Counted from the first letter of the stretch, positions 1-61,337 are shown. The stretch: DNA of 64,000 bases from Lytechinus pictus (GCF_037042905.1 NC_087251.1:9116001-9180000); one strand, 5' to 3'. Numbers and translations are program-made. Notes: generated by a model from the sequence alone, not told the origin.

Positions 1-377
1 AATGCTTTTGAATACTACATACAGCAATTAAATCGATAAAATTTACGAACAGAGTAAATCATTAAAAATACACCCATTCCAGCAACGAATAAAGGATTAA
101 CAAAAAAATACATAATCTTCATTAAGAGTAGACCTTTATTACTACATGTATTTCCTGTACACTTAAGTACAGCTGGTTATTTTTTTATTTTTTTTTAAAT
201 CTGCACTGTATACTGGTATTTCAAGTTTTCTATATCCTCCACCACCTGGATTTTTTTCTTGGGATCATTTATCACTCATGCCGACAAAACTATAAAAGCT
301 TGATTTTCATTTTTTGTGTACTTGGGTTTTCAGTCTTCAAACAGTAAAGGACTTGGTTATGACAGGGTTTTAAAAGC

Positions 378-770
378 CTATCTTTGATTTTGGAAAACCA
401 CCCAGAAATTGATCTCACTTTTCCAATTCAATATTAAATTATATGAATGTGTGTGCCCTAAAACAATTACAGAGTGAAGGGGTCCAAAATCAGAATGTGT
501 TTTTATTGAAAAATGTACGGATTTTACATCAAAATTTTTCTTGAACGGGTGCCCAATCAAAATAAAATATTTAATTTTGTCTTGCTTATCAAACCCCTTC
601 TCAAGCATGGAATGGGCATATCAAATCACTAATTTTGTATAGTAAGCGCCAAAAAGGCTAATTAAAAGATAAAACATTACAGAGAGAGGGTGCTAGATGC
701 CAAATTCTGAATTCTATCGGCTGAAAAACAGTCATTGACCTCTAATTTTTTAAATATGAATATTGGAGTG
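378..770. repeat. Interspersed repeat, diverged copy 1 (copy 2 at ~12555-13030)
   Basis: Shares blocks such as ttccaattcaata..attatatgaat..gtgtgtgccc, aaaataaaatatt and atggaatgggc with 12555-13030; the two spurious ORFs share GHTH.YNL.LNW.S. Confidence 0.75.
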
Positions 771-3700
771 TAACTCCCACTAGCAATTCCATAAAATAAT
801 CAACCTTTTTGTATGTCCGACCTTCATTTTTCTCAAGTCTTACCTCACTTCATAAACTGACCAAGTCATGGTCCTTTGAGAACATTACAGACTGTCAGAA
901 GAACACAAAATCAGATACAGAAAATTTCACGATTGAAGGTCCCACATATGGGAGGTCGAACATACTTAGTGTATTTCATGGAATTGCCCATTATACTGAC
1001 CCTCTACCAAAACTTTAGACAGGCTTTGAAGCCAAGTCAAATTAAAGAATTTGAAGAAGCTGATGTACAGGTGTACGTGGGTTCATATACCCAGCAATTC
1101 TTCTGAATTCATATCATGAATTGCTCTTACATAAATGACATGGACACCACATGTAGAGTTCTTCAAATACAAAGTAAATATTACTCATTTCCAGAAATTA
1201 AATGCGACATACATTGTAATGCTACATAGATTTTGAAACAGTGACTTGTAATTTCTGAACTGACGGTGTTCCATAACTTATATTCAAATAATAACATATT
1301 TCAGCATTCCACAAATACATCATTTGGTAGTAACTATCAATTGCATATCAGAGTATAGTAAAAATAAAAACCCTATTATTCCAGAAATTCAGACAACTGC
1401 TATTTACTGTATAAGCTGAAAGAACCAGGAAAACATAATATAGTGTAATTCAGTTTGTTTCAAGGCACATATTATGAACAAGGAATACCAGCTAGATAAA
1501 ATAAGAAAACATTAAAATTCATGGAATATATTTAGTACTAAATACAACAATCTTTGCATTTGATTTTAAGCATGAAAATAATCCAAGTTTATAGATGATT
1601 GAAAAGAGAAAAAAATAGACATCTATATAAATTTGTATCCTTAAAGCAATGAGATTAATACTTGCTGATTTGGTTTGTTTTACCTGAATGCTGTTAGTCT
1701 AAAGGCCTAATACCAATCACAAAGATAGGGTAAATTCTGCTTTGCTTCTAAATCAAATTAGAATTGTACTAGATCTATATCTAAATAATCTATCTTGCCT
1801 TAAATACAGGTATAACTATGAATTATCTGTGATTTTTCTCATTTTTAACAGACACTTCCTCAGTAATAATAATGAAAAAAGTAAAGTACTTCATCATGTT
1901 TGTGACTACCAGCATCAGAATGTTCAATATTCATGAAATCTTCATATTCTGGAAAAAAAATCACAATTTTGTGCAAAGATAAACAGTATCATTAACAAAG
2001 TATTTTTTACTGTCAGATAGCCAATGAGCATATTGTGCAAATTTGAACATTCACAATGCATATGAACTAACATACCCAATAAAAACAACTCGGGACATCA
2101 ATTACAGTAACAAATTTAATCATAAATTCAATACACTCAAACAAAACCTTTGCTGTAATGAGGGGTGTAAAACATGTTTGCAATTACATGTACATGTATC
2201 AAGTTAACATGGAAGAAGTACAGTGCCAGCCTCAGGAAACATCACACCAGAGACAAAAACAAATGGATAGGGCTTGTCCTCGATAATAAGGACGTTGTAT
2301 GTATGCGGCCCGGCTATATTTTCATCCATGGACCCATTGACTTTGGACGGGAGCACTCATCTGACAGACAAGGTATTACTCAGTAGTATGGACTATTCAT
2401 TTTGACAAGAAAAAAATAATGATGTTGCCTCAATTGCTTGGCTTCATATTAAACTGAAAGTGTTTGGTTCATCAGTCGTCAAAAAGATATCTTGTAAGAG
2501 GAAAATGAAGATTGCTAATTCTTCATCGAGATGTTCATAAAAAGGAAGCTGATGACCAAATCAACAATATGTCGTACCCAGTTGTTCATGCTATGCTGGA
2601 GATCATTAAACATTATAGAAGCAGCCAAATTTTACAGAAACACTATAAATTCAAAAAAGTTTGTAAATTTTACATTTCCTAAATCCTCAAAAATATGAAA
2701 TACTGCATACATATAAATATTTATACATTGATAAACAATTTATATGAAGTAGATATCACTAAAATAACATATACATGTAATGTTAGACATGCTGCAGCCC
2801 AGAAAAGGAAGAGTGGGGAAAAAACAGACAAATATGTAAAGCAAGAGAAAGAATACTGAACTGATTTGATGTAAAAACTGATTGAATAATTTTCCTATTA
2901 TTTTGTAATAAGCTAACACAAAAACTTATCTCTTCAACAGAAAATAAAATAAAGTAAAAAGAATAAACATGGCCCTACTCTCTTGGCAGCATGCAGCATA
3001 CATAATATAAATAAACCACTGCATAACACCAATGTACACACCATGGATAGAAACTAACAATTCCCTGCATAAACCAAGAATACAATGTTCATCAAGAATA
3101 ATTCATACATAGAACAATGCTATTTTAGAGTGACAATCCACAATTTCATTTGTTTGAAAAATTCAGTCTTAATACAAATATTCTGATGTAAGATGATAAT
3201 ATTCCAATTCATTATAGTATATAATTTTCATTTATGAAATGAAAATGCGATTTACAATTTTTTAAAAGATATATCTGTGTCTTAGTTTACTGGTATCCAA
3301 TCACTAAATTTCAGGAGGGTTAAGGGGATAGAAATAAGAAATGAATATTTTTATTTTAACAGAGAATCTGCTGTTGTAAACAGATTCAACGGCTAGATAC
3401 ACTCCTTGGCATGTTAGATGGTAATTGACATTATTGACCTTTTACAAAGTTTTAGCCAGTTCTAAAAGAACTTGCTTCCATTGAAATATAACTAATTATA
3501 AAAAACGAAGGGTGGGGGTTCAAATTCACAGAAAGAATCATAAAGTAAAACATACTTTGCATTATTACTCAGTTCACTGATGGTACACGGTCAAGTAGAC
3601 GCTAAATCTAAATAAATCATGGGGGAAAATAGACAAACTGGAGACCCGTCCCCATTGATATTTTGAAGTCCTATTACTGTTATAGTGCATTATTTCACAG

Positions 3701-4716: not shown

Positions 4717-6567
4717 TAAGTGGGCAGTACGGCCATGATGATGTTAAAGAATCTGAGAATGATACCATCTGCTAGTAGACCAAACGGGATACAAAATATT
4801 GATAAGATGTATGTATGGATGAAACATTCCCTTTCACCTGCATACATTTCAAACATCACAAATACATTTTAGCTTAATATAATATGTTTCAACTAAAATC
4901 TACAAGCTACAGGTGCCTCCAAACCCATTCTGTTTATTGATGGATTGCAGCCAGGGTGCTTACCTACAATCAGCTTTATGAAATGGCCCCCAGATGGGAT
5001 ATTATTGGAGGCAATGAGGCCTAATTCAAGTGGCAGGGTATGTTGTATTTGGAATAAAAGATTCACCAGGCTATAGCATCCTCACAACTAAGAGAATAAC
5101 AAAATAAAACCTCCAAACTTTATTTATGAAATGTTGAGGTGGATACTGAATTGATTGCATTGATGCTTATGCTGATGTTTTAATTTTTAGTTATGATGTA
5201 TGAGTGTTGTGAGCAATCACGGCATTTGGATATACATGTAAATACATACAACTGGCTAGTATTGGCTATTATTATAATTATCATTATGTATTAGTTGTTC
5301 CACTGTTAAAGAAATAATAATAGTAACAATAATATTTAAAAAACAGTAATTTTGGGGGGTGCAAATCCAAGGTCTTTCAAAAACTGGCAACCAAGAGATC
5401 AGTGCTTGAAACAATGCAGCAGCTGTGAGATCTAAAGAAATGACCAGTCCCTCTGAGGTGAATGATTGTTTCAGCTTGCAGCATCACATTTTAAACATAC
5501 ATGTAGTGGTATACTATTTAGAATATATTATGATTAATATAATTCTCAAAGTACTTATACCTTGTAAATTCATGAATGGTGCCATTTATGACATAGATTA
5601 GCCCATATGAAAAGCGAATGTCTTCAGGGTCAAGATGATAATTTTCTTATTCATATGGTAGAATACATCATGCCACACCTTTTTATAAAAAAAAATCTAA
5701 TTTGTATTCATGATTGAAGATGTTCCACAATTTTCTACTATATTCTTTTAAAAGCATGATTCAAATCCCAATTCCCTGGGATTTAATACATTCAAAATAT
5801 GGGATCACAAATTCCCTCCAAACACTGAATAAACAAATATCTAATGTAATAAGTTTCATAATTTTTTTTAGGAATATCGTCCACAAACAAGATTCTCTTT
5901 CAATTACTTTGAACAGTTTCTTTGAAAAATTTACCTATTTTAGGATTTGGTATTGGTGAATAAACAATTTTGAAACATTTCCCACATGCATCATACCTCA
6001 GCCCTGTTCAATGCCATTATAGTATATCCCATAGAGTCCTTGATATGATTGGATGTACAACAGGATTTAATACAAAGTTACTTTAATAGTGTTGTTTTTA
6101 CAGAGCCAGTGTCACCGAATAAGATAATTTCTACTCCAATACCATTGTATCTCTATAAAGAAAATAAACTACATGTATCAGTGATGTCTGTATAAGTATG
6201 AATGTATTGGAATAACACAATTTCTATACACAAATATATTCTATGCCCAATTCAAACAATTTAGTTTCTAGTGAAAGCAAATATAATTTCATCATGCAAA
6301 ATCCATGCATTTCTTTCAGAGAAATATCTCAAAACAAATTATCTGTCTGGATCATGCTACTACATGTACATGCATAATATTTGCAAAATGCAATAAGCTC
6401 TTGATCATTTATGATATTGATATATTTTTGTGCAATTCAAGTACACAATGCTGTGATCAAGGTGACACAATAACATACATTCAATGATACAATAAGACTT
6501 ATGGAAAAATGTTAAACAGATAATGTTAATAAATAGCTCCCTTGTACAATATTTTCTGAACCAACCA

Positions 6568-7281
6568 TCAACCCTGTCTTCCATTACTATTGTTACTTGT
6601 CTGTCCCATTAGTTCAAGTGATAATGTTGCGCAGGTGAATATTGCAGCATTGGTAGGAAATGCTCTCAGGAGCTGTGTACCGAGTCCCTTGTTGATGACC
6701 CGTATTCCTTCATTGCGGATACTCTTCTGTATGACATCGATGCTACCTCTGTACTTGTTCTGCCCATCCAACCCTTCAGCTTGAAGCCTTGTCTTAAAAA
6801 CATCAAAGCTGTACGTACAAACCCAAGAGCTCATACCACTAAGACCGCCAGCAGTCAGAAGTCCCATGATTCCGATCTGACCATCGGCATACATCTTGGC
6901 TATTTCACTACAGAAGAACTCATATGACATGAAGTAGATACCTAAACCAGGTGTGTCTCTTGCAATGGTCAACATAAGACCACGGTAGCATCCTCGAAAC
7001 CCTTCCATCCTGTAGATCTTCCGCAGGGCGTCAATAGATCCATGGTATTTTCCTTTCCTTTCCTTGCCTTGTGTATCTATCTGTACCTTTATTTTGGCGA
7101 GTTCCATTGGCCCACATATAAAGGATTGCACAAATCCAGCAAGACTTCCAGAAATAAAATGGCTATAGAGAGAAGATTGGTCAAACTGCCGTTGTACATT
7201 ACCCTGTACACCGAACACTAGAGCGTTTATGAACGTGAGACCTACCAGCGGAGAAGCCATGCCCTTGAACAAACCAAACAC
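6568..7281 (-). CDS. SLC25A29: Mitochondrial basic amino acid carrier (SLC25A29-like), last coding exon
   Basis: Acceptor cttaaccag|GTG; VFGLFKGMASPLVGLTFINALVFGVQGN...PMELAKIKVQ...FDVFKTRLQ carrier repeats; TGA at 6568. The four exons join in phase to 876 nt, 291 aa. Confidence 0.93.
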   Translation of the reverse strand: MFGLFKGMASPLVGLTFINALVFGVQGNVQRQFDQSSLYSHFISGSLAGFVQSFICGPMELAKIKVQIDTQGKERKGKYHGSIDALRKIYRMEGFRGCYRGLMLTIARDTPGLGIYFMSYEFFCSEIAKMYADGQIGIMGLLTAGGLSGMSSWVCTYSFDVFKTRLQAEGLDGQNKYRGSIDVIQKSIRNEGIRVINKGLGTQLLRAFPTNAAIFTCATLSLELMGQTSNNSNGRQG

Positions 7282-7430
7282 CTGGTTAAGAAAGAAAAAG
7301 AGAATTCCAGAAAAATTTAATAAACCATCAGCCAACAATTCTTGGTCATCAACTAAATAGGCAAACAAATAAATATCATAACCTCAACTTATAAACTACT
7401 TTAAGGAAATCTGCATACATATTAGATTAC

Positions 7431-8030
7431 TTAAAGGTCAAGTCCACCCCAGAAAAATGTTGATTTGGATAAATAGAGAAAAATCAAACTCGCATAATGC
7501 TAAAAATTTCATCAAAATCAGATGTAAAATAAGAAAGTTATGACATTTTAAAGTTTTGCTTATTTTTCACAAAACAGTTATGCTCTACTCAGTGACATGC
7601 AAATGAGACAGTCAGTGACATGCAAATGAGACAGTCGATGATGTCCCCCACTATTTCTTTTCTCGTTTTACAGATTTGACAATAAGGGCCGACTTGACTC
7701 AACCATATAAGTATTAAACAATGCTAATTCCACATGTTTAGGGAGGAATTCATCTTTGTTTCACTTGACAATGAGGAGAAACTTACAATATTTCATATTT
7801 CATGTAATAAAATACAACAGAAAGTTAGTGGATGATGTCATCAGTCTCCACATTTGCATACTGACCAGGATGTGCATAACTGTTTTGTGAAATCAAGCGA
7901 AACTTTAAAATATTTTAATTTACATATCTTATTTTACATCCGATTTTGAAAAATTTTCAGTGTTGTGCTCATTGGATTTTTCTCTTTTTATCCAAATAAA
8001 CTTTTTTGTTGGGGTGGACTTGTCCTTTAA
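7431..8030. mobile_element. Kolobok/T2-type MITE, family A
   Basis: TTAA-AGG(T/A)CAAGTCCACCCC ... GGGGTGGACTTGTCCT-TTAA; long imperfect inverted arms; at least 5 copies in the window. Confidence 0.85.
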
Positions 8031-8656
8031 TTACTTTATAAAGACATGAAAATAGTCTTATGGCTCATCATTATTAGTTTTTATTTATGCAAAGTAATTC
8101 TCTGATTTATATAATGATACAAAGGTGTAATATGAAACAATTGGAGACATTTTTTGCCTAAAAATAATAATGTAATGTTCATTTATTGCAAAATGAAACT
8201 TTTTCTCCAAAAGAAAAGATTAAATTAATTTAAAATTAATTAAAATTCTACAAAAACGGCAACAAAATATTAATCTATCAGTACACCAGTCTACTGATAA
8301 AGGTGTATTAAGGCTTCTTAACTTTAAGGTTGACAGTTTGAGGTAATACAAGATGCGATAAGAGGAGAGTATTGAGTTGAGGAGGAGTAGGGACGCTGAA
8401 CATTAGAAGTGTAAGGAAAATCCAGTCATTCACATTCATGGGGAACAAACTAGATTCATAATTTGGATTTACTACACTTCTACTGAGAATAGAGTGTTGA
8501 CAATATAACAAATAAAGAAACCAGACAAAAAATTTATAAAGTACAGTAAACATTGAGGAGATCTTACAACAAAAACAGTTTGATTCCGCTACCTTTCAGT
8601 ACCTGTATTGGAACTTTATATAATGGAAATGTTTACATACTACGTTTTAAACCTAC

Positions 8657-8740
8657 CGTTTCCTGTTTTATTATCTTGATACAGCAATTAAATGCACCAG
8701 AGTACTTGGGGGCAACACTGCTCTGTGTCTGCAGACGAAC
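8657..8740 (-). CDS. SLC25A29: SLC25A29-like coding exon 3 (VRLQTQSSVAPKYSGAFNCCIKIIKQET)
   Basis: cccttcag|GTT ... ACG|gtaggt; 84 nt, phase 0/0; matches carrier repeat 1. Confidence 0.93.
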
Positions 8741-8760
8741 CTGAAGGGATTCAAGATTTT

Positions 8761-9060
8761 AATAATAATAATAATTGGCATTTATATAGCGCTTTATCAA
8801 TCTACGACTGTTCAAAGCGCTTCACAATTATTATTACCCGGTCACTGGATTCATAGCATTTCAAGCAGCCTGTTAGGCGCACACTTGCTAAACCAACCAC
8901 AATGACCGTTGTTTCCTACCGGTACCCAATTAGCACCTGGGTGAGAGTGGCAATGTGTGGATTGACGCCTTGCCAAAGGGCGCTAGGCCATGGTGGGATT
9001 CGAACACTAGACCCTCTGATTACAAGGCAAGAGTCAGAACCGCTACACCCTGGTGCTTCC
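8761..9060 (-). mobile_element. tRNA-derived SINE with central conserved domain and (ATT)n tail
   Basis: Minus strand: GGTGTAGCGG (A box), GTTCGAATCCC (B box), core ccactctcacccaggtg..ggtacc, L2-like end aagcgctatataaat followed by ATT repeats. Confidence 0.85.
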
Positions 9061-9655
9061 ACACACAAAATAACAATGAATAAACAACTTTACTTTGACT
9101 GCAATGAATGAATCCATTTGTCAATGATGTCATCTAGCTTCATTCATTGCAGTAATGCCTTACTTTGGCGCAAATCAAAATTTAGATCACTGCAAAGAAT
9201 ACCTACTGATCATCCAAGCACGAAGACATACAACAAAAATATGGTATCAAATTATTTGGAAGAAGATATTCTTTCCAGCCATATATATTTCCTTAAACTA
9301 GGGATTTGTTAAGTGTAAAGTTTTTTTTACTCACATGTTATAATGACCAGAGATCTTTCTCATCCCCCCTCTGAATAATTAATTCTAGGCAGTAATTTAA
9401 AAAATATGCAATTCAATAATCAAAAGAAATTATATTAATGTTCAGCTAAGTAATAAAAATCCTTAGCTTATCTCTATACTACAGTAGAGAGGAAAATCTG
9501 AGTGAATAATTTTTCAATAGATAATAGAATAGTGTATTCAATGTCAACAGACTGGAACAGATGGTTTAATGACTACACAACAAACATGCAACCACATACA
9601 AAAAAGACTGAATAATGAAATGTAATGAATGATTACACTCTGTGTGAGTAATTAC

Positions 9656-9699
9656 CTTGACTGTGTCAAATGGATGCCCAACAAGAACACCTGCCACAC
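9656..9699 (-). CDS. SLC25A29: SLC25A29-like coding exon 2 (GVAGVLVGHPFDTVK)
   Basis: ttaatacag|GT ... AAG|gtaatt; 44 nt; contains the PX[DE]XXK carrier signature. Confidence 0.95.
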
Positions 9700-10261
9700 C
9701 TGTATTAAAGGGAGGGGGGAGGAGTAAAAGATTTACAGAATGATAAATGGATCAAATTAGTTATTACACTAATACCCTCTTCACACTGGCCACAAACAAC
9801 CCAACAGTACCGGGACTATCTCGAGACTGTACATGTAGCTCAGTGTTGCCTTCAGTGTGAATTCTGGGACCCGCAATAACCTCACCTTGCAATAACCTCT
9901 GCAACAAATTATCGCTAACCAAGCCATCAATATCAGCAGGACAGCCCAACAACTGTCGCGGTGTTTCTTCAGTGTGAAGGCACACTGCTACAACATCGGA
10001 ATAAACCACTTGTGATATGTGGGGGCATCGTGATCTAGTGTAAAGACTCTCGTCTTTCAATCTGAAGGACGTGTTTTGTTACGGAGGTAATAAAAATCAC
10101 TTGCTGCAGTGTGAATGAGTACATGCAAATTTATCTCGGGACTGTGCCGTGATAACTTTTCTACTGTGAATGCATTTATTGCAGGTTTATAGCGGTGCTG
10201 CCGTTCCATGACAGCACCTGGATAAATTTGAATAACCAATGTGAGAGGGGTATATGGTAAC

Positions 10262-10878
10262 TTAAAGGGATAGTCCGTGCTGAAAATATTTATATCTAAA
10301 TAAATAGAGTAAAATTCACAGAGCAAAATGCTGAAAATTTCATCAAAATCGGATAACAAATAACAAAGTAATTGAATTTTAAAGTTTATCAATATTTTGT
10401 GAAAATAGTTACTGTATACGCACATCGTCATGAATATTCATTAGGTGGGCTGATGATGTCACATCCCCACTTTCCTTTTTGTTATGTTATTACATGAAAT
10501 CATAAATGTTTCATTTTTTCATGCATGTGTCATTGATGTGTTTCCATTATGATGAAATAAGTTGCGGCAATAAATAACTAATGCACTTAATCAGTTGTCA
10601 ATCCGATTGTTTTAGTTCTTGATAGAAAACTTTTAAATAAACCTAATTTCATATAATAAAATACAAAAGAACAAGTGGGGATATGACATCATCAGCCCAC
10701 CTAATAAATATTCATAAAGACATGCTAAGAACCGTTTCACCGGAATAGTGCAAATCTTTAAAATTCAATAACTTCGTTATTTGTGATCAAATTTTGATCA
10801 AATTTTCAGCATTTTGCTCTGTGAATTTCACTCTATTTATTGAGATATGAATATTTCCAGCCTGGACCATCCCTTTAA
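10262..10878. mobile_element. Kolobok/T2-type MITE, family B
   Basis: TTAA-AGGGATAGTCC ... GGACCATCCCT-TTAA with long inverted arms; a fragment also occurs at ~44690-44790. Confidence 0.85.
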
Positions 10879-12554: not shown

Positions 12555-13030
12555 TACAACCTTATCTTTAGTTTTAGTGAACCTCCCAACAAGTCGATGT
12601 CACTGTTCCAATTCAATACTAGATTATATGAATATGTGTGTGTGTGCCCGAAAGCGGTTATGATTTGAAGAATATACATGTAAACAAAAAACTGTTTTTT
12701 ACTTGATAAATTTACAGATTTTATATCAAAATTTACATGTAACTGATCAAGTGCCCGCTCAAAATAAAATATTGGCATATCTATGTCTTGTTTATACCCC
12801 TTTTAAAGAATGGAATGGGCTGACAAAAAATTCTGGACCTTTTTTTTTTGTGGAAATCAATCACTAAATCTGTAAAGTACTGTAAGTGTTCAAAGGGCAA
12901 TTTAAAAAAAAAATGAAAAAAAACATTGACAAAAGAGGGTCCTAAAAGGCCAAATTAGAACTCTTAAAAAAAGATGAAAAAATCACATATTTTAATTCTA
13001 ACAGCTGAAAACACAGTTCAATGACTGCTA
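12555..13030. repeat. Interspersed repeat, copy 2 of 378-770
   Basis: Alignable by eye to 378-770. Confidence 0.7.
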
Positions 13031-13157
13031 CTGTGCTTAAATTTTGTAATCTTGAAATGTTAGCTTGAACGTTATGCTGCAGGCACATTTCCCCTACGGC
13101 GGACATAAGGCGAGTCGAAAAACAGCCGTGTTATTCATTTTTATTCAGACCACCTAT

Positions 13158-47408: not shown

Positions 47409-47520
47409 AACAAGTGGAGCGCCTCTGGCAGTCTCACCTGCATTACGCGATTCAAAATAGTAGCAGTGCTGACTTTGAAAACTGATATGAAATAATTATT
47501 CACAAAAAACACCATTCTCA
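47409..47520. mobile_element. HINE-like terminal fragment
   Basis: aacaagtggagcgcctctggcagtctcacctgcat... Confidence 0.75.
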
Positions 47521-47625
47521 TATTTAATGATTATCTTAATAACAATAACTTAACATTGCATTTGCCTTGTTACTGAATAGCAAACAAAAAACTGAAAATG
47601 AATGTTTTGGAGGTCCTACCTACTG

Positions 47626-48024: not shown

Positions 48025-48388
48025 ACAAGTGGAACGCCTCTGACAGTCTCGCCTGCATTACGCAATGCGATATAGCAGCAGTGCTTCCTTTGAAAATAGC
48101 TTATGAATATTATTCACAGAAGAAAACACTAATATGATAAAAAAATATTATGCCCATTGACCCAAAATGACCTTTGACCATGATCATGTGACCTAAGACA
48201 TGTGCAAAACAATCATTCATACTTGATTCTCCTTATGTCGATGTTTCATGAGCTAGATCCATAAACTTCCTTAGTTATGATGCCAATTCAACACATACTC
48301 CCAACACGGCCAGAATTCATTGACCTTTAAATGACCTTTGATCTTGGCCATGTTTCTGAAATGCATACAGGGTATTCAGGAATACACT
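48023..48388. mobile_element. HINE-like element, truncated at the Penelope junction
   Basis: Matches the 55923 and 57449 consensus. Confidence 0.8.
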
Positions 48389-50690
48389 GCTGGGTTTTCA
48401 GTGCTGTTGGTGCTGGGTTGGTGGTGGGAAGGTTAAGTGTTGATCCTTCTTCTGGGGTATTGGTTGATGGTGGAGAGTGCATGGGTGACGTGCTTGAGTT
48501 CCTGCTGTAGGTGTGCCTTGTCGCTGAGTTGGTGGGCTCGTCTGATGAGAGAGTCGGCGACTGATTGGTGGAAGGATGGGTGGTGGTGTGAGCGGAGTTG
48601 AGGTAGCGGTCGGTGTGGGTGGGTTTCCGGTAAACCTGGTGAGATGGGAATCCAGATGGTGTCTTGGTGATGAGAACGTCTAGAAAAGGAATTGAGTTGT
48701 CGCATTGGGTCTCCATGGTTAAATTGATGCTGGGGTGCTGGTGGTTGAGGTGGTTAAGAAACTGGTGAAGGTCAGGTGTGCTGTGCGGCCAGATGACAAA
48801 GGTGTCGTCGACGTAGCGGAGCCAGAGTGAAGGAGGTTTGTCCGCAGTCTTGAGTGCTTGGTGCTCTAAATGTTCCATGAAGATATTAGCGATGATTGGT
48901 GAGAGAGGTGATCCCATGGCTGCTCCTTGTAGTTTTTTGTAGAAGTTGTTGCGCCATTTGAAGGAGTTGGAGTGAAGACAGGTGAGGAGGTCGTGGATCT
49001 GGTCTGGTGTGAGATTGGTTCTGGATGTGGGGTCTGGGTCGGTGATGAATCGTTGCTTGATGATGTCACATGCTTGGTCTACAGGTATGCTGGTGAAGAG
49101 GGAGACGACGTCAAAGTTGACGAGTGTGTCAGAGGGCTGGATCTTGGTCTTGGAGATGACATCAATGAAGTGCTTGGAGTTGGTGACGTGGTGCTGGGTT
49201 TGGCCTACGAGTGGTTGGAGGATGTTGGCCAGATGGCGTGCTGTGTTGTAGCAGGGTGACCCGCGGGTAGAGATGATAGGGCGGGGAGGAGTGTAAGGCT
49301 TGTGTATCTTGGGTTGTCCGAATAGGATAGGTGACTTGGCTGAAGAAGATCAGAGTTGGAAGTAGAGTGCCTTGGGTAGTGCATCGGATCGGTGTAGGGT
49401 CAGCAGTTGTTGGTTGATTTTCCTTTCGTTGGCCGGAGTTGGGTCTCTGAGTTTGGAGTAGTTGTCCTTGTCTTGAAGAATGTCTTCGATCTTGTCCTCG
49501 TATACGTCTTGGTCCATGATAACGGTGGCGTTGCCCTTGTCAGCCTGAAGGATGTGGATGGCTTGGTTACTTCGGAGGTCCTGGATGGCAGTGTGTTCTT
49601 CCTTGGAGAGGTTCTGTTTAGGTGGCTTGGCGTCGGAGAGGGCATTGGTCACTTTGAGTCTTATTTTGTTGGCGGCTGCTTTGGAGAGAAAGCGGAGCTT
49701 GGGTTCGACTTGTTGTACTATGTCGGAGAAAGGGATCTTCTTAGGAGCTAGGGCGAAGTTGAGTCCGAGGGAGAGTACTTTGTGTTCAGCTTGAGTAAGT
49801 TGGTGTCGGCTGAGGTTGATTACAGTGAGTGTCCTTGGTTACTCCGGTAGAAGGTTGTTGGTTGGCTTGTGTAGGCTTGCGGGAGTGGAGTCGGTCGAAC
49901 TTGTTGATTTGCTTCAGTTTAGTGGACTGGAAGGCTTGGTCAGCTGTGTAGTTATTGCATGTCTGAATTTTGTCTAGATCGTCTGCCTTGAGTCGTCTGC
50001 TAAGTTGAGATTGAGTAGAAGTGATGGCTGAGTTAAGATCGTGGAGTTGGTGTCGGGTGTGTGCGATGCGTTCACGAGTAAGGTCTAAGCTGGCTTGGTG
50101 CAGGATACGTTTGGCTTTTGGAGTGTCAACGGAAGATTTGAGTTGTAGTCCTGGAGGGATGATGTCGGAGTCGCGGCAGCGTTTGAGGAAGGCAAGGTGG
50201 TTGGTAAGCTTGGCTGATTTGACTAGGTCGCGCTAAAGTTGCCTGGCGATGCGTTGAGTAGGCTCCCCGTAGAGCTGAGTCAGATATTGTTTGAAGGTTT
50301 GCATGGTGGCATGTACAATCGCTGATGTGGTTTACGGTACACCATGTGCACGCACTCCACAAGTACCGCCGCACGCCGAGTGAACACTCACTCCTGAAGA
50401 CGGACAGTCAACCTGCCCAAAACGTTGAGTCTCTCTACTGCTTCTACTCATCATCTCTACTCGCCGACTCAAGCCAGCAACTCCTCATCCAGACTACTGC
50501 TCAAGCTGTTTCTTCAACTCATTAATCTCTTCTGGTTTACAGTCCTTTTCAGGACTACTTTCAAGAAAAGAATACTCTACTCTCAAATTTCCACTTTCTC
50601 GCCTATCCAATTCCTTTTCTTCTTCTTTCCACTGTTTCTATAACACTCCACATGGTGTACCGTAAACCACATCAGCAATCGATATGTCAT
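48389..50690 (-). mobile_element. Penelope-like retroelement (degenerate RT ORF, no GIY-YIG visible) with inverted upstream segment
   Basis: gccaccATG at 50304; HLAFLKRCRDSDIIPPGL, ADKGNATVIMD, MGSPLSPIIANIFME, WLRYVDDTF, PFLDV, VYRKPTHTDRYL; stops and frameshifts. Confidence 0.92.
50390..50430 (+). ncRNA. Degenerate minimal type I hammerhead ribozyme of the Penelope pLTR
   Basis: ACTC-CTGAAGA-C-GGACAG-tcaac-CTGCCC-aAAAC-GTT-GAGT: stem I ACTC/GAGT, stem II with one mismatch, GAAA changed to AAAA. Confidence 0.65.
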
Positions 50691-50692
50691 GT

Positions 50693-50923
50693 TGGATGTT
50701 TCACAAAGAGTTAAGTGTGACTTAGAGTCACTTAAGTGCTCAAAAATACTGATGTGCATGTGATATGTACGTGTAATATTATTGATTGATTGATAGAGTA
50801 GTGTAATTAATCTTAGTATGATTTGAGCAATGCGGTGATGCCTGCAATACCACACGCAACTGGGAATTTAAGTGTGACTCTAAGTCGCACCCAAGTCACA
50901 CTTAAATCTTTGTGAAACACCCC
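50693..50923. mobile_element. Short MITE
   Basis: TIR gg.tgtttcacaaaga.ttaagtgtgactt / aagtcacacttaaatctttgtgaaacacc. Confidence 0.8.
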
Positions 50924-51132
50924 CTAGAGTTAACCACACAAATTTTGACTGAAGATATTTAACATTAATTTGGAGTTTTTGGACAAAAGAATTTCAAGTT
51001 ATTATTTTAATACTTTGATTGGTTAACAATTTTCTAATAAATATATATATCTAAGCAAAAATAAAATGTATCCAGTGTGTCTGCAATTATTTCTTATTGA
51101 TATCCTGTGACTGTTTATGCAATGTGTTGCTA

Positions 51133-51300
<168 letters not shown>

Positions 51301-51798
51301 TTAACGTAGACACCCAAAACATATTTATGATACGTGATAATTGTAGACAAGTTATATATGGATGGAAAGGTCTTGTCTTGTTATTCTCAAATAAGTCACT
51401 AAAAAGTTTTATAGATGTCATGTCATGTCATTGCAAGAAATGCAATTATAAGAGACCCTTCTCACCCCCCCTTAAGACATTGCGTGATCGGACACAGTCT
51501 CAATTATGACGTCACACAATTGGCAACCCACGTATGCATGCATGCACTTCCCTTGGTGTTTGTTTTTCCTTTAGCTTTTACCGTTTTTTTCCCCATGTAG
51601 ATATTTGATTCCTGGTTTTGACTTCCTCATACACTGTAGTGAACAGTAGCTATGTTATTTTACTCATTTTTATTAAATTATAGACTGTAAATCCCGAGTT
51701 TGGACTTGACAATGCAGAGAGTTTGTTGAAAATCTAAGTACCTGTGATGTGTATATGCTGGCCGTATGGCAGTGCACTTTGAATGAGCTGAGCTATAC

Positions 51799-51829
<31 letters not shown>

Positions 51830-51932
51830 GGTAAGCTAGCTACCTCCCAAGAGTTCAAACAGGGGTCAGGGGTCCTTTCACTCTCTCCCTCTCATATACA
51901 TGTCTCTTTTTTGTGGAGATTTAAACGAATAG

Positions 51933-52542
51933 TTAAAGGACAAGTCCACCCCAACAAAAGGTTGATTTGAAAAAAAAAGGAGAAAAATCCAACAAGCAAA
52001 ACACTGAAAATTTCATCAAAATCGGATGTAAAATAAGAAAATTATGACATTTTAAAGTTACACTTAATTTCACAAAACAGTTATATGCACATCCTGGTCG
52101 GTATGCAAATTGGCAGACTGATGACCTCACCCACTCACTATTTCTTTTGTATTTTTTTATATGAAATATGAAAAATTCTAATTTTCTCCTCCTTGTCAAC
52201 TTAGTTTCATTTCTCCCTGAACATGTGGAATTACCATTGTTTTAACAGTTTATGGTTAAGTTAAGTTGGTCCTTCTTGTCAAATCTGTAAAAATTGAAAT
52301 ATTGTATTATTCAAAAAAAAAAAAAAAAAAAAAAATAGTGAGTGATGGACATCATCGACTCTCGCATTTGCATATCACTGAGTTGTGCATTTAACTGTTT
52401 TGTGAAAAATAAGCGAAACTTAAAAATGTCATAACTTCTCTTATTTTACATCCGATTTCGATGAAATTTGCAGCGTTATGTTTGTTTGATTTTTCTCTAT
52501 CGATTCAAATCAACAATTTTCTGGGGTGGACTTGACCTTTAA
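51933..52542. mobile_element. Kolobok/T2-type MITE, family A
   Basis: TTAA-AGGACAAGTCCACCCC ... GGGGTGGACTTGACCT-TTAA. Confidence 0.85.
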
Positions 52543-53497
52543 GCTCAGAAGACTGCAAAATGATATAGAATTGGTCAGTAAATCTCAGTTGGTGCGAGAG
52601 ATTGCAGACCACTTCTCTATCAAGTCACATCAAACACAGGACCTCAATTGTCAATGCACTGTACTGGAGTTGAATTACATGAGCTATACGTGGGGGCTGG
52701 GGAATGGATGGAAGAGAGATCAGAGGGAGGGAGAGAGCAAAAGAGACAGGTATAAGAGTGGGAGAGACACAGCTTGAAATAAGTATGCGAATTTGAGCTG
52801 CTGTCGGCTGTGTATAGTGTGAAGTCACTCATATGGTAGCTCGACGGAGGACCGATGAAGGCAGAAATATGGACTGAATAATTTTTTAGGGCTGATATCT
52901 GGAAGCCTCATGCACTATTTGGACAAGGAAAGGTATTTATGTAATTAGTAATACTTCCCCTTTACAGTGATGAATAAAATAATCATTATAAAACATGTTT
53001 GAGTCTTCGGGTGTCTACTTTAAAAACAAACTAATAAAAATACCAATATTACATTAAAAAACAATAATAATATAACATGCAATGTGTACCCTCAAGTACA
53101 AGTAGGGAAACCCAACCTTAGAATTAGGGAAGCAATAAATAATTTATTATGGTTGTCTTTCAACCAGTAATAACAAGATGATGTCTGGGAGACAGATCCC
53201 TTCTATTCAGATACTACATGTAAATGTGAATTGAATGAAAATCTAAGCTATCATGTTGTACAGTGGCAAATTATGTATACATAGTTATTAGTATTCAGAT
53301 ACAGATATAAGATGATGTATCATTTTCAAAAATCCACATTGATTTTAGGGACATAAACTCTCAAAAATAATTGCTAACTGCACTTTTCATTTCACCAAAC
53401 CATGGTAAATGTAAATACTACAGCTACACATACAATGTTGCACATTGACATAATTTTCAGTATTAAATGTGATAAATTGTATAAAAAAGATAAGTTA

Positions 53498-53827
<330 letters not shown>

Positions 53828-54631
53828 TCATTAGTGAAATTCTATATTCTGAATGTTCAACAAGTATCAACCCTAATAAAATGCAAATTTCAGTGACTTA
53901 TCAGCAATGATTTCAAGGTCAGGAAATTTGCAACAAACGATTTTGTTAATTTCCTTTAGGATTTCTACATATAACATGGACTGTGTTCATTCTTGTCTAT
54001 AGCATTTATACAATGGTATCACCAGTAGTTTTTCATGCATGTATCACATTGCCTTCATTGTGATATTTTATTTTATTTCTGCATTCACATGATATATATA
54101 ATATGACATATACAGAGGCAATAAATATAACAAATCAACAATACTGTGGTCATAAAACAAGCAATGAAAACAAATAACAAAACATATTATTCATTCATAC
54201 AAAAAATATAATTTAGAGGAATGCAGGAGACCGCCATCATGAGCGATTATCATTAGGCTTGAAAATGATGACAGCTTCATAAAAAGAAATAAATGTATTA
54301 ATTGAAATTCAATATAATAATTTATTTTTTCCAATTTCTTAATCTAATTTAATACAATATTCCAAACATGAACATACAAATGCATGATAATCAGCTACAC
54401 ATGAATAGTCCCTTCTAAAGAGATCATACTTTAAATTGCAAAACAACACCTTTAATGAGCCTTTTTGCCAAATGTTATTCTCCCCATACCCACTTGCAGG
54501 GTCATTTTCAACTGTCAAAATGATACATTTATCTTCTGCAAACGTTAAATCAAATATTAATAACATATTATTCTGTTACTTTTCAAGTGATTATTTAGAA
54601 ATGATTTGTAATACATAATAAATAATCTTAC

Positions 54632-54797
54632 AGCAAAGGAGCCTGGTCATCATCATCATGATCATCAACTTCAAGCAACCAACCATAACCCTTATTCTGC
54701 AGAAACTGTGAGGCAGCATTTCCTCTTGGTCTAAGTTCTGGTTGCTCATTAGCTTTGTCGTAACTCATCTCCCCAAGATCCAGCTGCACATTCATAT
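54632..54797 (-). CDS. YIPF4: YIPF4 exon (MNVQLDLG...KGYGWLLEVDD...APLL)
   Basis: gtatccatag|AT ATG ... CT|gtaaga; GYGWLLEV motif; the ATG at 54795 may itself be the start (221 aa). Confidence 0.92.
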
Positions 54798-55259
54798 CTA
54801 TGGATACAAATTTATAAATCAGCAGAAATTTGAAACACATTCCAAAAAGAGGATGAAAATTTTCTATCATTATTGCAGCTGTTTTTTTCTTTACGAATTC
54901 AAAGTTTCCTCTCATTGGCTGAATTGTGTTCCTGCATCATGTCTTTGATGTCACAAGCGTGCATGCACACACAAAAAACATTGACTGAGCTGTGATTTCA
55001 AAGCTTGTCCATACAAAAATGTTAAGAAGCCGCCAAGCCAACCTCTCATATTGCGATATTACAACTATCATCTCCACTGTCCAAATGATACGAGCACAAG
55101 CAATGTATTTTAAACTTAATCTTGATATCGAGCAGGTTTGCTAGGATAGTGCATATAGAGCCTTGGAATCTCTTGGGCAATCTGACATGATATAATTGTC
55201 TCTCACTCTTCCTTTTTCAAAATACATGTAAAAAAATAAAACATCCAAACACAGATCAT

Positions 55260-55922: not shown

Positions 55923-56950
55923 AACAAGTGGAACGCCTCTGGCAGTCTCGCCTGCATTACGCAATTTGATATAGCAGCAGTGCTGACTTTGAAAACAGCT
56001 ATTAACTAATTATTCACAAAAGAATAATATGTCCATTGACCCAAGATGACCTTTGACCATGATCATGTGACCTAAGATATGTGCAAAACAATCATTTATA
56101 CTTGATTACCTTTATGTCTATGTTTCATGAACTACATGTGTAGATCCATACACTTTCTAAGTTATGATGCAAATTCAACAAATACACCCAACACGGCCAA
56201 AGTTCATTGACCCTAAATGACCTTTGATTTTGATCATGTGACCAGAAACAAGCCCAAGATATTCAGGGATACTTGGTTACTCTAATGTCCCAAGTTTCAT
56301 GAACTAGATCTATAAACTTTAAAGTTATGATAATTCCACCAATACCCACCATATTATCAAAGTTCGTTGACCCTCAATGACCTTTGACCTAGATCATGTG
56401 ATATGAAACTTGCACAAGATGTTCAGGAATACTTATTGCTCTTACGTCTAAGTTTCATGAACTAGATCCATAAAATGTCAAAGTTATAATGACAATTCCT
56501 CAAATACCCCCAACATGGTCAAAGTTTGTTGACCCTAAGTGACCTTCGACCTTGGTCATGTGACCTGAAACTCAGGCAGGATCTTCAGTTATACACTATC
56601 ACCCTTATGTCCAAGTTTCATGAACTAGGTCCATATACTTTAGAAGTTATGATGAAATTTCACAAACTTAACCTTGGTTAAGATTTCGATATTGATTCCC
56701 CCAACATGGTCTAAGTTCATTGACCCTAAATGACCTTTGACCTTGGTCATGTGACCTGAAACTCAGGCAGGATCTTTAGTAATACTTGATTACCCTTATG
56801 TCCAAGTTTCATGAACTAGGTCCATATACTTTCTAAGTTATGATGACATTTCAAAACTTTAACCTTGGTTAAGATTTCAATGTTGACGACGCGGCCGTCG
56901 TCAGAAAAGCGGCGCCTATAGTCTCACTCTGCTATGCAGGCGAGACAAAA
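55923..56950. mobile_element. HINE-like element, complete
   Basis: Both termini plus about 5 internal units. Confidence 0.85.
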
Positions 56951-58567: not shown

Positions 58568-59245
58568 AACAAGGCAAAAGCGATTTTGTATCTCGCCCAC
58601 TTATGAAAATAACCAGAAATATCGTGATTTGCGAGGGCACGCAACAAAATTGTATCAAAACTTCATTGTGAAATGACTGGGATGGAATAACACTTGTCAT
58701 AAGAGTCTTTCACGTAAACTTTAATGTTTACCTCAAAATGAACTTTGACCATACCATGTGACCTCCCTACAGCATGCAGGTCCCCTAATTACATCTACCA
58801 TCCAAGTTTGGTTGATTTACGGTTGCAGAGATATGTGTCATAAGAGAGTCTTGCACGGAAACTTTAACGTTGACCTGAAAATGACCTTTGACCTTACCAT
58901 GTGACCTGACTGCAGCATGACATGCAGGTCTCAAAACTTCATGGACAATCCAAGTTTTGATGAAAAGTGACTTGCGGTGTGGAGTTGGGTGTCATAAGAG
59001 AATCTTACATGTAAACTTTAACGTTGACCTGAAAATGACCTTTGACCTTACCATGTGACCTCCGACTGCAGCATAACATGCAAGTTGCCTAAGTACATCT
59101 AGCATCCAAGTTTGGTAGAAAAGTGATTTACGGTTGCGGAGTTAGGTGTCATAAGAGTCTTGCATGTCAACTTTAATGTTGACCTGAAAATGACCTTTGA
59201 CCTTACCATGTGACCTCCGACTGTAACATGACATGCAGGTCCCCT
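58568..59245. mobile_element. Second HINE-like family with ~155-bp internal repeats, truncated
   Basis: aacaaggc start; units containing gttgacctgaaaatgacctttgaccttaccatgtgacc. Confidence 0.7.
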
Positions 59246-59744
59246 TAGTGTCCAATATTTCCACTGTATAGACTTTGGTAGACCGTATTTATTGACAAAC
59301 GAACAAAGCTTGTACTGCTTGTTTCGTTCAAGGTATGTAGATTTTTTTCAATTTTTTTTATTAGTAATCGTTTTAAGTTATTTGCAAAAAAGTGTTATCA
59401 TCGCCAATAATAATCTTGAATTATGTTTTTGAAGGTATTTCATATATTGGTGCGCATAATTAGTCAAGTAATCATAAAAATTGCGCATTCAAAGAATTTA
59501 GACACATCGGGCTTCCTTTTATTTCTGTAGAAGAGTATGATGGTGGTCCCTAAGTCTATGCACCTAACAATTTGAGTAAAGATTTACATGTAACATAATT
59601 TTTTTTTTTTTTCACAAATCTTTCAGATAATTTTTCTTATATTATTATGAGTAAGTGTACCAAATATCTCATAAAAATTTGAAAGAAATATAGGATTTTC
59701 TTGGAAAAAACCTTGGGCACTCATTTTCAGATTGAAAAAAAAAA

Positions 59745-60578
59745 ATGGTACCCAATGTCTGCGCACCAGGCAAGATGGACACGCCCAAAGCTACATTAAG
59801 TAAGTCGAAAACTTACGCCACTGCTGAGTCACTGACTGATTTTAGACTGCATTTTGACAATTTTACTTCTAAAATCCTAGAAAAGTTAGATAACGTTATT
59901 TTCAGCATTTCCGATATCAGAGAAGAGATTAAAGACATGAAATCTACGATACATGTATCTATATTACAAGGAGCGGCAACTGATTCTGCGTCCCGTGTGG
60001 AAACCATTGAAAACAAAGTTATTCCTAAATTAATAAGAAAACAAAAAGAATGTGAGCAAAACCTGCACGACGCCATCATCGCACAGGAAATTCACGAGAG
60101 GAAAAGAAATTTGCTATTCTATGGTATCGAGAAAAAAACAGATGAAAACGTCGAAGAGATTATCCGGATCGTCATCGGATCTCTCGACCTACCAGCAACT
60201 AAGACGAGCAGGATGATGTTTAATAATGTCCATCGACTGCCTAGAAAGCCGAACAACGACATCAAAACGCCCAACCCCATTATCGCTCGATTTGTTTCGA
60301 TGTCCGACCGCGATGAAGTATTCAACGCTTTAGATAGGTTGCAGCGACGACCAAACGACGACGTAAGCAAGAGTCTTCGCAGCGATTACCCGCGGATCAC
60401 GATACGTTCTGACCTACCAGCTGAGCATAAAAAAATACGCTATCAACTTGAGAAAGAAGCCTATCATCTACGGAAAAACAAAAATGTGTCAACGAGAATT
60501 CGACTAGTTGGCGTAAAGCTCATACTCGAATCAAGACCGAAATCACAAAGCCTCACAACGTGGACTAAATATCCGTGA
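59745..60578 (+). CDS. LINE ORF1p-like protein (coiled coil, RRM, CTD), uninterrupted 277-aa ORF
   Basis: Heptad N-terminal region, RKRNLLFYGI, NVHRL, PIIARF..DRDEV and I.SDLP..R motifs typical of L1-type ORF1; no ORF2 follows. Confidence 0.75.
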   Translation: MVPNVCAPGKMDTPKATLSKSKTYATAESLTDFRLHFDNFTSKILEKLDNVIFSISDIREEIKDMKSTIHVSILQGAATDSASRVETIENKVIPKLIRKQKECEQNLHDAIIAQEIHERKRNLLFYGIEKKTDENVEEIIRIVIGSLDLPATKTSRMMFNNVHRLPRKPNNDIKTPNPIIARFVSMSDRDEVFNALDRLQRRPNDDVSKSLRSDYPRITIRSDLPAEHKKIRYQLEKEAYHLRKNKNVSTRIRLVGVKLILESRPKSQSLTTWTKYP

Positions 60579-61337
60579 GTATATGATCTTATCTTAGCTA
60601 GCTGCTGCTACCCACTTATCCTACGTACGAGGTTATTGAAATTTGTTTTTAAACTGAGACTCGCCATAAATCCGAACTTGAGTCAATCATCGACACCCAT
60701 GAATACGATTGATGACGGATAGTTTAAGCAATTTATACCTGATGCCATTTGGCGTCCCCAAATCTGTAACTTTTGCTCGGTGCAATAAATTATATGTTTA
60801 TATATTTGATAAAATTATCAGTGAACCATTAACTATATAACCTCATCTTGAAGTTAGTGGCCATGCACCGATTATAAAAAATCAATATTGAGAATTAGAT
60901 TCATGCTCTACTTGTAATATAATGAACATAGATCACCTTTGCATAATCTACTTCTATATCACTTGCTAGAAATGACCTACATGTATATTGTCATTAAAGA
61001 CTGGCAAGTCTTTTATCTTACGAACAAATTCATTAGACATTACCACTTCTGCAGTTTATGCAGGTATCATGTCAAAGCTTCAGCTTTAGTTTCACTAGGC
61101 TATCCTGACTGATGCAATATCTAATTCAGAATATGACATATTTTGATTGCAATATTTTCCACATGTTTAACCACACTGCCATGACTGCTTTCTTAATTTT
61201 CTATTGTAGTAGTACATTGTAATGAAGACATACTCATCTGTGAAATGATAAAATGTAATTATATAGTCTTTTCAATTCACTCAATTATCTGATGATAACT
61301 GACTTCTGGCCATGCTAGCGAACATGTAGTTTTAGTA

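What the first reader, a model, noticed from the sequence alone, without database searches (positions are those of the whole stretch)
143..60985. About 40 TACATGTA octamers, several demonstrably CATGTA insertions at TA sites
Seen: I count about 40 exact TACATGTA by eye, against roughly 2-3 expected at ~66% AT. Paralogous repeat copies show empty versus filled sites: 13188 gttacgTACATGTAtgg vs gttacgTAtgg (13553, 26371); 16344 ccTACATGTAtag vs ccTAtag (56916, 58381); 59585 gattTACATGTAacat vs gattTAacat (~61385); 56133 acTACATGTGTAgatcc vs acTAgatcc. Iterated forms occur (tacatgtacatgta at 2185). Known: TA-CA-TG-TA is the classic Tc1/mariner excision footprint. Inference: a very large number of insertion-excision cycles, or an unrecognised palindromic micro-insertion process, has left scars here at about one per 1.2 kb where they occur, far above the number of surviving Tc1-like elements.
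Basis: partly seen in the sequence, partly recalled or inferred. Interest (0 to 1): 0.75.

Follow-up and report, generated by a model that had tools for sequence, protein, structure and literature searches.

The report
Transposon exit scars in urchin introns
The eight-letter word TACATGTA is about seventeen times too common in this sea-urchin DNA and at several comparable sites is six extra letters added at a TA, likely the scar left each time a cut-and-paste jumping gene cut itself out, although that jumping gene was not found.

Summary
Confirmed: 41 TACATGTA against 2.4 expected, in sea-urchin DNA holding SLC25A29 and YIPF4. The insertion claim holds in part. The clearest case is new: the copy at 59950 adds two codons to a retroelement ORF, absent from 13 of 13 aligned homologues. 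The related words TACATGTGTA (56133) and TACTGTA (10410) are also polarised gains at TA. Against: 59006 arose by substitution, 41241 is no clean +6, and 5233 is not a six-base gap in a related species. CpG decay, mirror-image repair and assembly artefact are disfavoured. Best reading (0.7): accumulated germline excision footprints of a CA-ended, two-base-overhang Tc1/mariner-type element. Membership is unproven: no such element or transposase lies in the window, and the +4 scar typical of worm soma is not enriched. Copies are patchy: 24 of 25 genic copies lie in the 5'-most introns, and none lie in 25.3-40 kb. This scan has reported the same word many times in this genome and in oyster DNA. 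The scar type is known; I did not find this density in print.

The parts
143..150 (.). TACATGTA
   Evidence: no comparator
2185..2198 (.). Compound TA-CATG-TA-CATG-TA (two overlapping octamers, 2185 and 2191)
   Evidence: no gap in run X13 across 2100-2925 (table 8)
2772..2779 (.). TACATGTA; organism A reads C at its first base
   Evidence: table 3; gap positions in organism A not shown
5233..5240 (.). TACATGTA, not a 6-base gap in related organism A (older than the split, or made by substitution)
   Evidence: table 8: X1 record 6 lacks 3 letters and X4 record 26 lacks 5 letters in total
5498..5505 (.). TACATGTA
6170..6177 (.). TACATGTA
6361..6374 (.). TACATGTA followed by CATGCA (near-compound)
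6571..23918 (-). SLC25A29-like mitochondrial carrier gene, coding span; intron 1 about 9701-23882 holds 19 octamers
9830..9837 (.). TACATGTA
10410..10416 (.). TACTGTA, a 5-base gain at a TA in one arm of a ~600-bp inverted-repeat element; 8 other arms lack it
11068..11075 (.). TACATGTA
11545..11552 (.). TACATGTA
12675..12682 (.). TACATGTA; net +6 against the one diverged paralogue at 370-617
   Evidence: about 73% identity, suggestive only
12734..12741 (.). TACATGTA; net +5 against the same paralogue
   Evidence: suggestive only
13188..13195 (.). TACATGTA inside a short motif found without CATGTA at 13553 and 26371
   Evidence: weak
14892..14899 (.). TACATGTA at the junction of a LINE fragment and a repeat fragment
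16344..16351 (.). TACATGTA; +6 against four repeat tails, with an adjacent 13-base deletion
16386..16393 (.). TACATGTA
17553..17565 (.). Compound TA-CTG-TA-CATG-TA (octamer at 17558)
17806..17834 (.). 14-base tandem duplication holding octamers 17812 and 17826 (likely one scar copied)
17880..17895 (.). Compound TA-CATG-TA-CATGTG-TA
17899..17906 (.). TACATGTA
18911..18924 (.). TACATGTA followed by CATGCA (near-compound)
19106..19113 (.). TACATGTA
19334..19346 (.). Compound TA-CTG-TA-CATG-TA (octamer at 19339)
19422..19429 (.). TACATGTA
22433..22440 (.). TACATGTA
25106..25113 (.). TACATGTA at the end of an ACT microsatellite
25176..25183 (.). TACATGTA
25301..40000 (.). Octamer-free zone (1058 TA sites, 0 octamers), CpG-richer, includes a 2.7-kb tandem duplication
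40156..40163 (.). TACATGTA
41241..41248 (.). TACATGTA in a LINE fragment; no two-residue gain against 20 homologues, so not a clean +6
42957..42964 (.). TACATGTA
43437..43444 (.). TACATGTA
43553..43560 (.). TACATGTA
44582..44589 (.). TACATGTA
45597..54798 (-). YIPF4 gene, five coding exons placed; first coding exon not found in the window
53215..53222 (.). TACATGTA
55223..55230 (.). TACATGTA
56133..56142 (.). TACATGTGTA, an 8-base gain at a TA in a tandem-repeat unit
   Evidence: 17 of 18 overlapping alignments lack it
59006..59013 (.). TACATGTA made by substitution (same length as 3 sister units)
59585..59592 (.). TACATGTA; clean +6 against the single paralogue at 61388
59950..59957 (.). TACATGTA adding two codons (His-Val) to a LINE ORF1-like frame; absent in 13 of 13 aligned homologues
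60978..60985 (.). TACATGTA

Best explanation
TACATGTA is strongly over-represented here and at several comparable sites is CATGTA added at a TA; most copies are likely germline excision footprints of a Tc1/mariner-type cut-and-paste element with CA...TG ends that was not found. Inferred steps: the element inserts at TA and duplicates it. The transposase later cuts it out, leaving a two-base 3' overhang (CA) on each flank. End joining keeps both overhangs, giving TA-CA-TG-TA. Loss of one base would give TACTGTA/TACAGTA, and slippage would give TACATGTGTA; both occur here as polarised gains. Scars can outnumber elements because each visit leaves one, six extra bases are nearly neutral outside exons, and in a large population an inserted copy has many generations in which to excise before it fixes (inference). 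The patchiness likely reflects insertion or repair bias toward some germline-transcribed, CpG-poor DNA; this step is the least supported.
For: 41 vs 2.4 expected. Polarised gains at TA: 59950, 13 of 13 aligned homologues lack the two residues; 56133, 17 of 18 alignments; 10410, 8 of 9 arms lack it. 59585, 16344, 12675 and 12734 show gains with weaker polarity. The added letters are constant and do not mirror the flanks in 8 of 8 contexts, which points to an outside source such as element ends. TACAGTA/TACTGTA 17 vs 10.2 (P 0.03) and TACATGTGTA 2 vs 0.33, whereas TACATTA/TAATGTA, expected from a CAT-ended three-base cutter, are 23 vs 18-22. Flanks lean toward the Tc1 target consensus (A at -3, 37 of 80 vs 27.3, P 0.025; T at -2, P 0.063; consensus in PMC9635669). 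Sites appear re-used: CATG follows the octamer 5 of 82 times vs 1.1, and CAGTA 2 vs 0.17. Tc1 leaves two-base non-complementary 3' overhangs, and TA-CA-TG-TA is a main germline product under in-frame selection, 24 of 103 (PMC4490562).
Against: No TA-CA...TG-TA inverted-repeat element lies in the window (8 weak pairs, best 4 mismatches in 22, all AT-rich). No DDE transposase was found in 150 of 161 ORFs scanned, and the genome was not held. The +4 scar that is 78% in C. elegans soma (PMC13148408) is not enriched (69 vs 69.2). Of 9 octamers with any comparator, 3 are not six-base gains: 59006 (substitution), 41241 (no two-residue gain in 20 homologues) and 5233 (not a gap in organism A). 13188 fails a uniform test. 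No octamer was seen polymorphic: only 12 of 146 indel rows were shown. A at -1, part of the Tc1 consensus, is not enriched (24 vs 28). Several flank tests were run without correction.
Confidence: 0.7

Rival explanations
1. A one-step process writes CATGTA at TA without a stable element. Candidates are a domesticated or trans-acting transposase doing abortive insertion, or a repair enzyme copying a fixed short template at TA breaks in particular chromatin.
For: One product dominates and +4 forms are not enriched. No element was found here. Sister palindromes TAGATCTA (9 vs 0.69) and TAGGCCTA (4 vs 0.36) are also enriched. The distribution is patchy (largest gap P 0.0009, or 0.038 on unique DNA).
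Against: No such enzyme is known to me. The minor products are what a two-base-overhang break predicts. Sister words are equally explained by elements with other ends. One window cannot show that an element is absent from the genome.
Confidence: 0.14
2. An element whose overhangs anneal: CAT ends cut three bases in, or CATG ends cut four bases in, rejoin by their own complementarity and give the same octamer very uniformly.
For: Explains the uniform product and why all three enriched TA-N4-TA sister words are palindromes.
Against: A CAT-ended three-base cutter should also leave TACATTA/TAATGTA, which is not clearly enriched (23 vs 17.8-22.2), whereas TACAGTA/TACTGTA is. No CAT-ended inverted-repeat element lies in the window. 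I know of no four-base cutter in this superfamily (recalled).
Confidence: 0.08
3. The word is a protein-binding site kept or gained by selection, as for PsMyb37 in Phytophthora or Irx homeodomains.
For: TACATGTA is bound by PsMyb37 (PMC11134190 passages) and is named as an Irx site (PMC3520976 passage). Copies favour 5' introns here (24 of 25).
Against: It arises by insertion, not stepwise substitution, including inside a retroelement frame. Flanks are nearly random. One-mismatch neighbours are barely enriched (63 vs 45-50). Copies do not cluster at the SLC25A29 start. Binding could still be a secondary use.
Confidence: 0.04
4. Composition, CpG decay, local mirror-image (hairpin or template-switch) repair, or an assembly artefact.
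For: Copies lie in CpG-poorer DNA (shift test 0.025). One copy (59006) did arise by substitution. 59585 has ACAT one base from the site.
Against: Other CpG-decay products are not enriched (TACACATA 2, TATGCATA 1, TATGTGTA 2). Added letters do not mirror the flank in 8 of 8 contexts. A contig of run X13 carries no gap across three octamers, and organism A matches in length across a fourth; X13 may come from the assembled stock.
Confidence: 0.04

Closest known systems
Tc1 excision footprint TA-CA-TG-TA of Caenorhabditis elegans (PMC4490562 passages and supplementary data 3; PMC3520976 passage; PMC13148408 passages)
   Same: Identical eight letters, TA target duplicated, and minor products consistent with a two-base 3' overhang.
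   Different: In the worm it is one of many products (24 of 103 germline revertants under in-frame selection; +4 is 78% in soma), and fewer than 10 excision scars were found in 45 wild genomes. Here about 1 in 100 unique TA sites carries it (37 of 3677), +4 forms are not enriched, and the element is unseen.
ISY100, a two-base cutter of the IS630/Tc1/mariner family (PMC2170065 passages)
   Same: Cleaves exactly at the 3' ends and two bases inside the 5' ends, so the footprint is TA, two bases, two bases, TA.
   Different: Bacterial; its ends give a TATATA junction, not TACATGTA.
Sleeping Beauty-type three-base footprints TACAGTA/TACTGTA (recalled, not read here)
   Same: TACTGTA occurs here as a polarised gain (10410) and is mildly enriched.
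   Different: Here it is the minor product. It could come from a second, CAG-ended element or from trimming of the two-base break.
TACATGTA promoter motif of Phytophthora (motif-1 / AM-20; PMC3520976, PMC11134190 passages)
   Same: The same word at very high copy number (upstream of 12,070 genes).
   Different: Published as a transcription-factor site, with the footprint origin dismissed untested. Here the word demonstrably enters by insertion at several sites.

Membership tests
Two-base-overhang Tc1/mariner excision footprint | Gain of sequence at a TA with the TA duplicated | tested here: met
   59950 (13 of 13 homologues); 59585 and 16344; related words 56133 and 10410. Not met at 59006, 41241 and 5233.
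Two-base-overhang Tc1/mariner excision footprint | Added letters equal the terminal bases (CA, TG) of an inverted-repeat element present in the genome | tested here: inconclusive
   No such element in the window; genome not held. Earlier scan notes mention a young Tc1 family in this genome, but its ends were not shown.
Two-base-overhang Tc1/mariner excision footprint | The same locus is seen with the element in place in another allele or species | tested here: inconclusive
   One 4.4-kb stretch laid on 4 runs; tables cut (12 of 146 indel rows, 15 of 87 joints shown); no such allele among the rows shown.
Two-base-overhang Tc1/mariner excision footprint | A DDD/E transposase able to act on the element | tested here: inconclusive
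   None in 150 of 161 window ORFs of 65 aa or more; it can act from elsewhere in the genome.
Two-base-overhang Tc1/mariner excision footprint | Target-site preference like CAYA-TA-TRTG | tested here: inconclusive
   A at -3 P 0.025, T at -2 P 0.063, A at -1 not enriched (consensus from PMC9635669).
C. elegans somatic Tc1 repair spectrum | +4 scar is the main product (78%) | tested here: not met
   TACATA/TATGTA 69 observed, 69.2 expected. Not filed under this spectrum.
Hairpin-opening (hAT/RAG-type) footprints | Added letters are a mirror image of the flanking DNA | tested here: not met
   8 of 8 contexts lack the template; feature recalled from general knowledge.
Methyl-CpG decay product | All CA/TG combinations rise together | tested here: not met
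   41 vs 2, 1, 2.
Selected transcription-factor site (PsMyb37/Irx type) | Bound by a factor and conserved in position between species | not testable with these tools
   No binding data; the cross-species table was cut.

The most novel reading that the evidence does not exclude
TA-to-TACATGTA is a standing germline mutation signature. It is written by a transposase-like activity that need not leave a stable element, is steered to the long 5' introns of germline-expressed genes, and re-uses its own scars. It would supply of the order of one new scar per 100-200 substitutions, so that scar density maps past germline chromatin. The same process may also have mass-produced the TACATGTA 'promoter motif' of Phytophthora.
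Probability: 0.14. Interest if true: 0.78.

Novelty: new variant of a known kind. Interest (0 to 1): 0.42.

Why it matters
If these are footprints, cut-and-paste transposition has touched about 1 in 100 TA sites of some genes while leaving almost no elements. Repeat annotation would then miss most past activity, and a top-ranking DNA 'motif' would be a mutational record rather than a regulatory code. The scars are countable, datable markers that make insertion bias and germline end-joining testable in a wild animal. The chemistry itself is known, and the source element and the cause of the patchiness remain unshown.

Tried and rejected
The whole genome was not held, so there is no genome-wide count or element search of my own. 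The cross-species and population test covers only 2100-6500 (7 of 41 octamers). Its tables were crowded by a very high-copy repeat, and none of the 12 of 146 indel rows shown lies at an octamer. Run X13 shows next to no cover from about 5040 on, which is no finding. The uniform collapsed-site test gave no excess over control (3 of 41 vs 10 of 150). No TA-CA...TG-TA inverted-repeat element was found; pairs for other end dinucleotides were inspected only from their top six rows and looked like internal parts of the known repeats. Metagenome scans for more copies of urchin repeats gave 0 loci and 1 locus, L004, which I did not examine. A viral-contig scan for a threefold repeat gave 3 loci with local arrays only, uninformative. 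Protein polarity at 41241 did not support +6. A strict gene-body rule fails: 8 copies lie beyond the SLC25A29 stop and 6 beyond the YIPF4 stop, and the later YIPF4 introns hold only 1. The idea that TAG(G/A)(C/T)CTA words prefer CpG-rich DNA was not significant (shift test 0.13, n 16). The absence from coding exons has no power (0 in 1644 bases, 105 TA). Fewer octamers in repeats (4 of 1391 TA vs 37 of 3677, P 0.008) is biased, because BLAST coverage breaks at insertions. Ten paper searches found no report of this density in an echinoderm; subscription papers are not covered.
Full report
Setting. The window is sea-urchin DNA. A mitochondrial carrier on the minus strand is 89% identical to the Strongylocentrotus purpuratus protein and spans 23918 to 6571, with a 14.2-kb first intron. 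YIPF4 lies on the minus strand with five coding exons between 54798 and 45597; its first exon was not found. No whole genome was held.

The count. There are 41 exact TACATGTA. Markov orders 0-3 predict 1.5-3.5. It is the most enriched of 136 TA-N4-TA words (41 vs 2.39). About 36 are independent candidates: 2-3 are expected by chance, 17812/17826 sit in one 14-base tandem duplication, and 59006 arose by substitution.

Is it an insertion? Nine octamers have a comparator. The best is new. The copy at 59950 lies in an open retroelement frame and adds His-Val where 13 of 13 aligned homologues (of 21 found; best 63% identical) have a two-residue gap. 59585 is a clean six-base gap against its one paralogue. 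16344 matches four repeat tails if CATGTA was gained and 13 nearby bases were lost. 12675 and 12734 show net +6 and +5 against one 73%-identical paralogue. 13188 rests on an 18-letter motif, and a uniform test did not recover it (3 of 41 vs 10 of 150 controls). Three go against: 59006 has the length of its three sister units; 41241 shows no two-residue gain in 20 LINE homologues of 30-41% identity; and 5233 cannot be a six-base gap in organism A, because the contigs spanning it lack only 3 and 5 letters in total (table 8), so it is older than the split or made by substitution. A tenth, 14892, sits at a repeat junction and is uninformative. Two related words are well polarised: TACATGTGTA at 56133 (+8; 17 of 18 alignments) and TACTGTA at 10410 (+5; 8 other arms lack it).

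Population data. Four runs were laid on 2100-6500 only, covering 7 of 41 octamers. Run X13 (organism B, 0.91 of words shared) has no gap across 2100-2925, which argues against an assembly artefact at three octamers, though it may come from the assembled stock. Organism A differs by about 4.5-7.7% substitutions in three long contigs. Only 12 of 146 indel rows were shown, none at an octamer, so polymorphism is neither shown nor excluded.

What writes it? CpG decay fails: TACACATA 2, TATGCATA 1, TATGTGTA 2. Mirror-image repair fails: in 8 of 8 contexts the added letters are not a copy of the flank. A fixed insert at varied TA sites points to an outside source. Tc1 excision leaves non-complementary two-base 3' overhangs (PMC4490562, figure legend). 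In that paper's supplementary data 3 (both parts read) TA-CA-TG-TA is 24 of 103 wild-type germline revertants, 10 of 36 in lig-4 and 3 of 39 in polq-1, all selected for reading frame. ISY100 shows the same two-base chemistry (PMC2170065 passages). The minor words fit: TACAGTA/TACTGTA 17 vs 10.2 and TACATGTGTA 2 vs 0.33, while TACATTA/TAATGTA are 23 vs 18-22. Flanks lean weakly toward the Tc1 consensus (PMC9635669, one passage). Compound forms suggest re-use: CA follows the octamer 16 of 82 times vs 7.3, and CATG 5 vs 1.1. These tests are uncorrected.

What does not fit. The +4 scar, 78% in worm soma (PMC13148408 passages), is not enriched: 69 vs 69.2. PMC3520976 calls the +6 form rare (passage). 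PMC4490562 found fewer than 10 excision scars in 45 wild worm genomes. Here 37 of 3677 unique TA sites carry the word. In rice, excisions mostly leave deletions or filler, with 8 perfect ones in 94 (PMC4423477 passages). No CA-ended element and no DDE transposase (150 of 161 ORFs) lies in the window. So it works like a Tc1-type footprint, but membership is not established.

Age and rate (hand arithmetic; inference). One-mismatch neighbours number 63 against 45-50 expected, an excess of 13-18 for about 39 exact copies. That implies a mean age of roughly 4-5.5% substitution per base, with wide error, similar to the distance from organism A. If scars accumulated evenly over twice that age, there is about one scar per 100-200 substitutions in this window. 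An active transposon family could plausibly supply that if most inserted copies excise before they fix.

Distribution. The 15-kb gap is unlikely for random TA sites (P 0.0009; 0.038 on unique DNA), and octamers sit in CpG-poorer DNA (circular-shift 0.025; 0.09 by rank test on unique DNA). 24 of 25 copies within the coding spans lie in the 5'-most introns, which hold 68% of the TA sites (P 0.0007). I ran this test after reading earlier notes that proposed it, and the YIPF4 first-intron boundary is assumed. But 14 copies lie beyond the two stop codons, so neither a first-intron nor a gene-body rule is complete. The cause is open.

Prior record. This scan has reported the same word on many other pieces of this genome and in oyster DNA, and TAGGCCTA in other animals. 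One note gives 224,000 copies genome-wide, and another a young Tc1 family; I could check neither. These are unchecked notes, not independent support; they supplied the paper leads PMC4490562 and PMC13148408 and the first-intron idea. In print, the word is treated as a transcription-factor site in Phytophthora (PMC3520976, PMC11134190 passages). Ten searches found no account of footprints at this density in echinoderms; subscription journals and bioRxiv supplements were not visible.

Verdict. The insertion claim is shown for a few sites and false or doubtful for others. Excision footprints of an unseen CA-ended element are the best reading (0.7). It is a known scar at an unusual scale and with an unusual spectrum: new variant of a known kind, interest 0.42.

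Noticed in passing
window 1770, 17695, 23944, 27207, 27871, 27969, 43485, 56305, 63826; 10894, 30354, 32026, 32949: Sister palindromes TAGATCTA (9 vs 0.69 expected; 56305 is repeat-derived) and TAGGCCTA (4 vs 0.36). Several lie in the octamer-free zone; 30354 is fused to TACAGTA. Possibly scars of elements with other ends; no filled/empty pair found here.
   Followed up: partly
window about 4300-4690: Very high-copy repeat with short internal palindromes: summed contig depth up to 250,000 in organism A and 14,757 in organism B, against about 25-110 in flanking DNA. Unclassified.
   Followed up: no
window 2926-2988 and 4011-4140: Run X13 lacks 63 bases at 2926-2988; all three organism A runs skip 130 bases at 4011-4140.
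   Followed up: no
window 7423-8039, 10262-10878, 17932-18556, 27238-27846, 31094-31707, 51927-52545: Six copies of a ~600-bp element with 130-150-bp inverted ends that mostly begin at TTAA (Kolobok-like; label recalled, not tested).
   Followed up: partly
window 16578-17451, 40735-41105, 48023-48388, 55256-58516: Family of 163/192-bp tandem units with a conserved head and tail, on both strands (Helitron/HINE-like; label recalled, not tested).
   Followed up: partly
window 34552-40005: Near-identical tandem duplication with 2.7-kb spacing, purine-rich; recent duplication or assembly duplication.
   Followed up: no
window 48330-50232 (-): Broken reverse-transcriptase element (RVT_1 hit, E 7e-12) in a YIPF4 intron, Penelope-like by eye.
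   Followed up: no
window 59736-60575 (+): Open 280-aa LINE ORF1-like frame with no Pfam hit; 21 relatives, best 63% identical; still open despite the two-codon gain.
   Followed up: partly
window 14280-14948 (-), 20997-22340 (-), 41089-42262 (+): Decayed LINE fragments (zf-RVT and RVT_1 hits for the last two).
   Followed up: partly
window 46917-47363 and 58695-59245: 16/42-bp minisatellite and a 155-bp tandem array.
   Followed up: no
window 54799-64000: The first coding exon of YIPF4 (about 26 residues) was not found in the window; it may lie beyond the end.
   Followed up: partly
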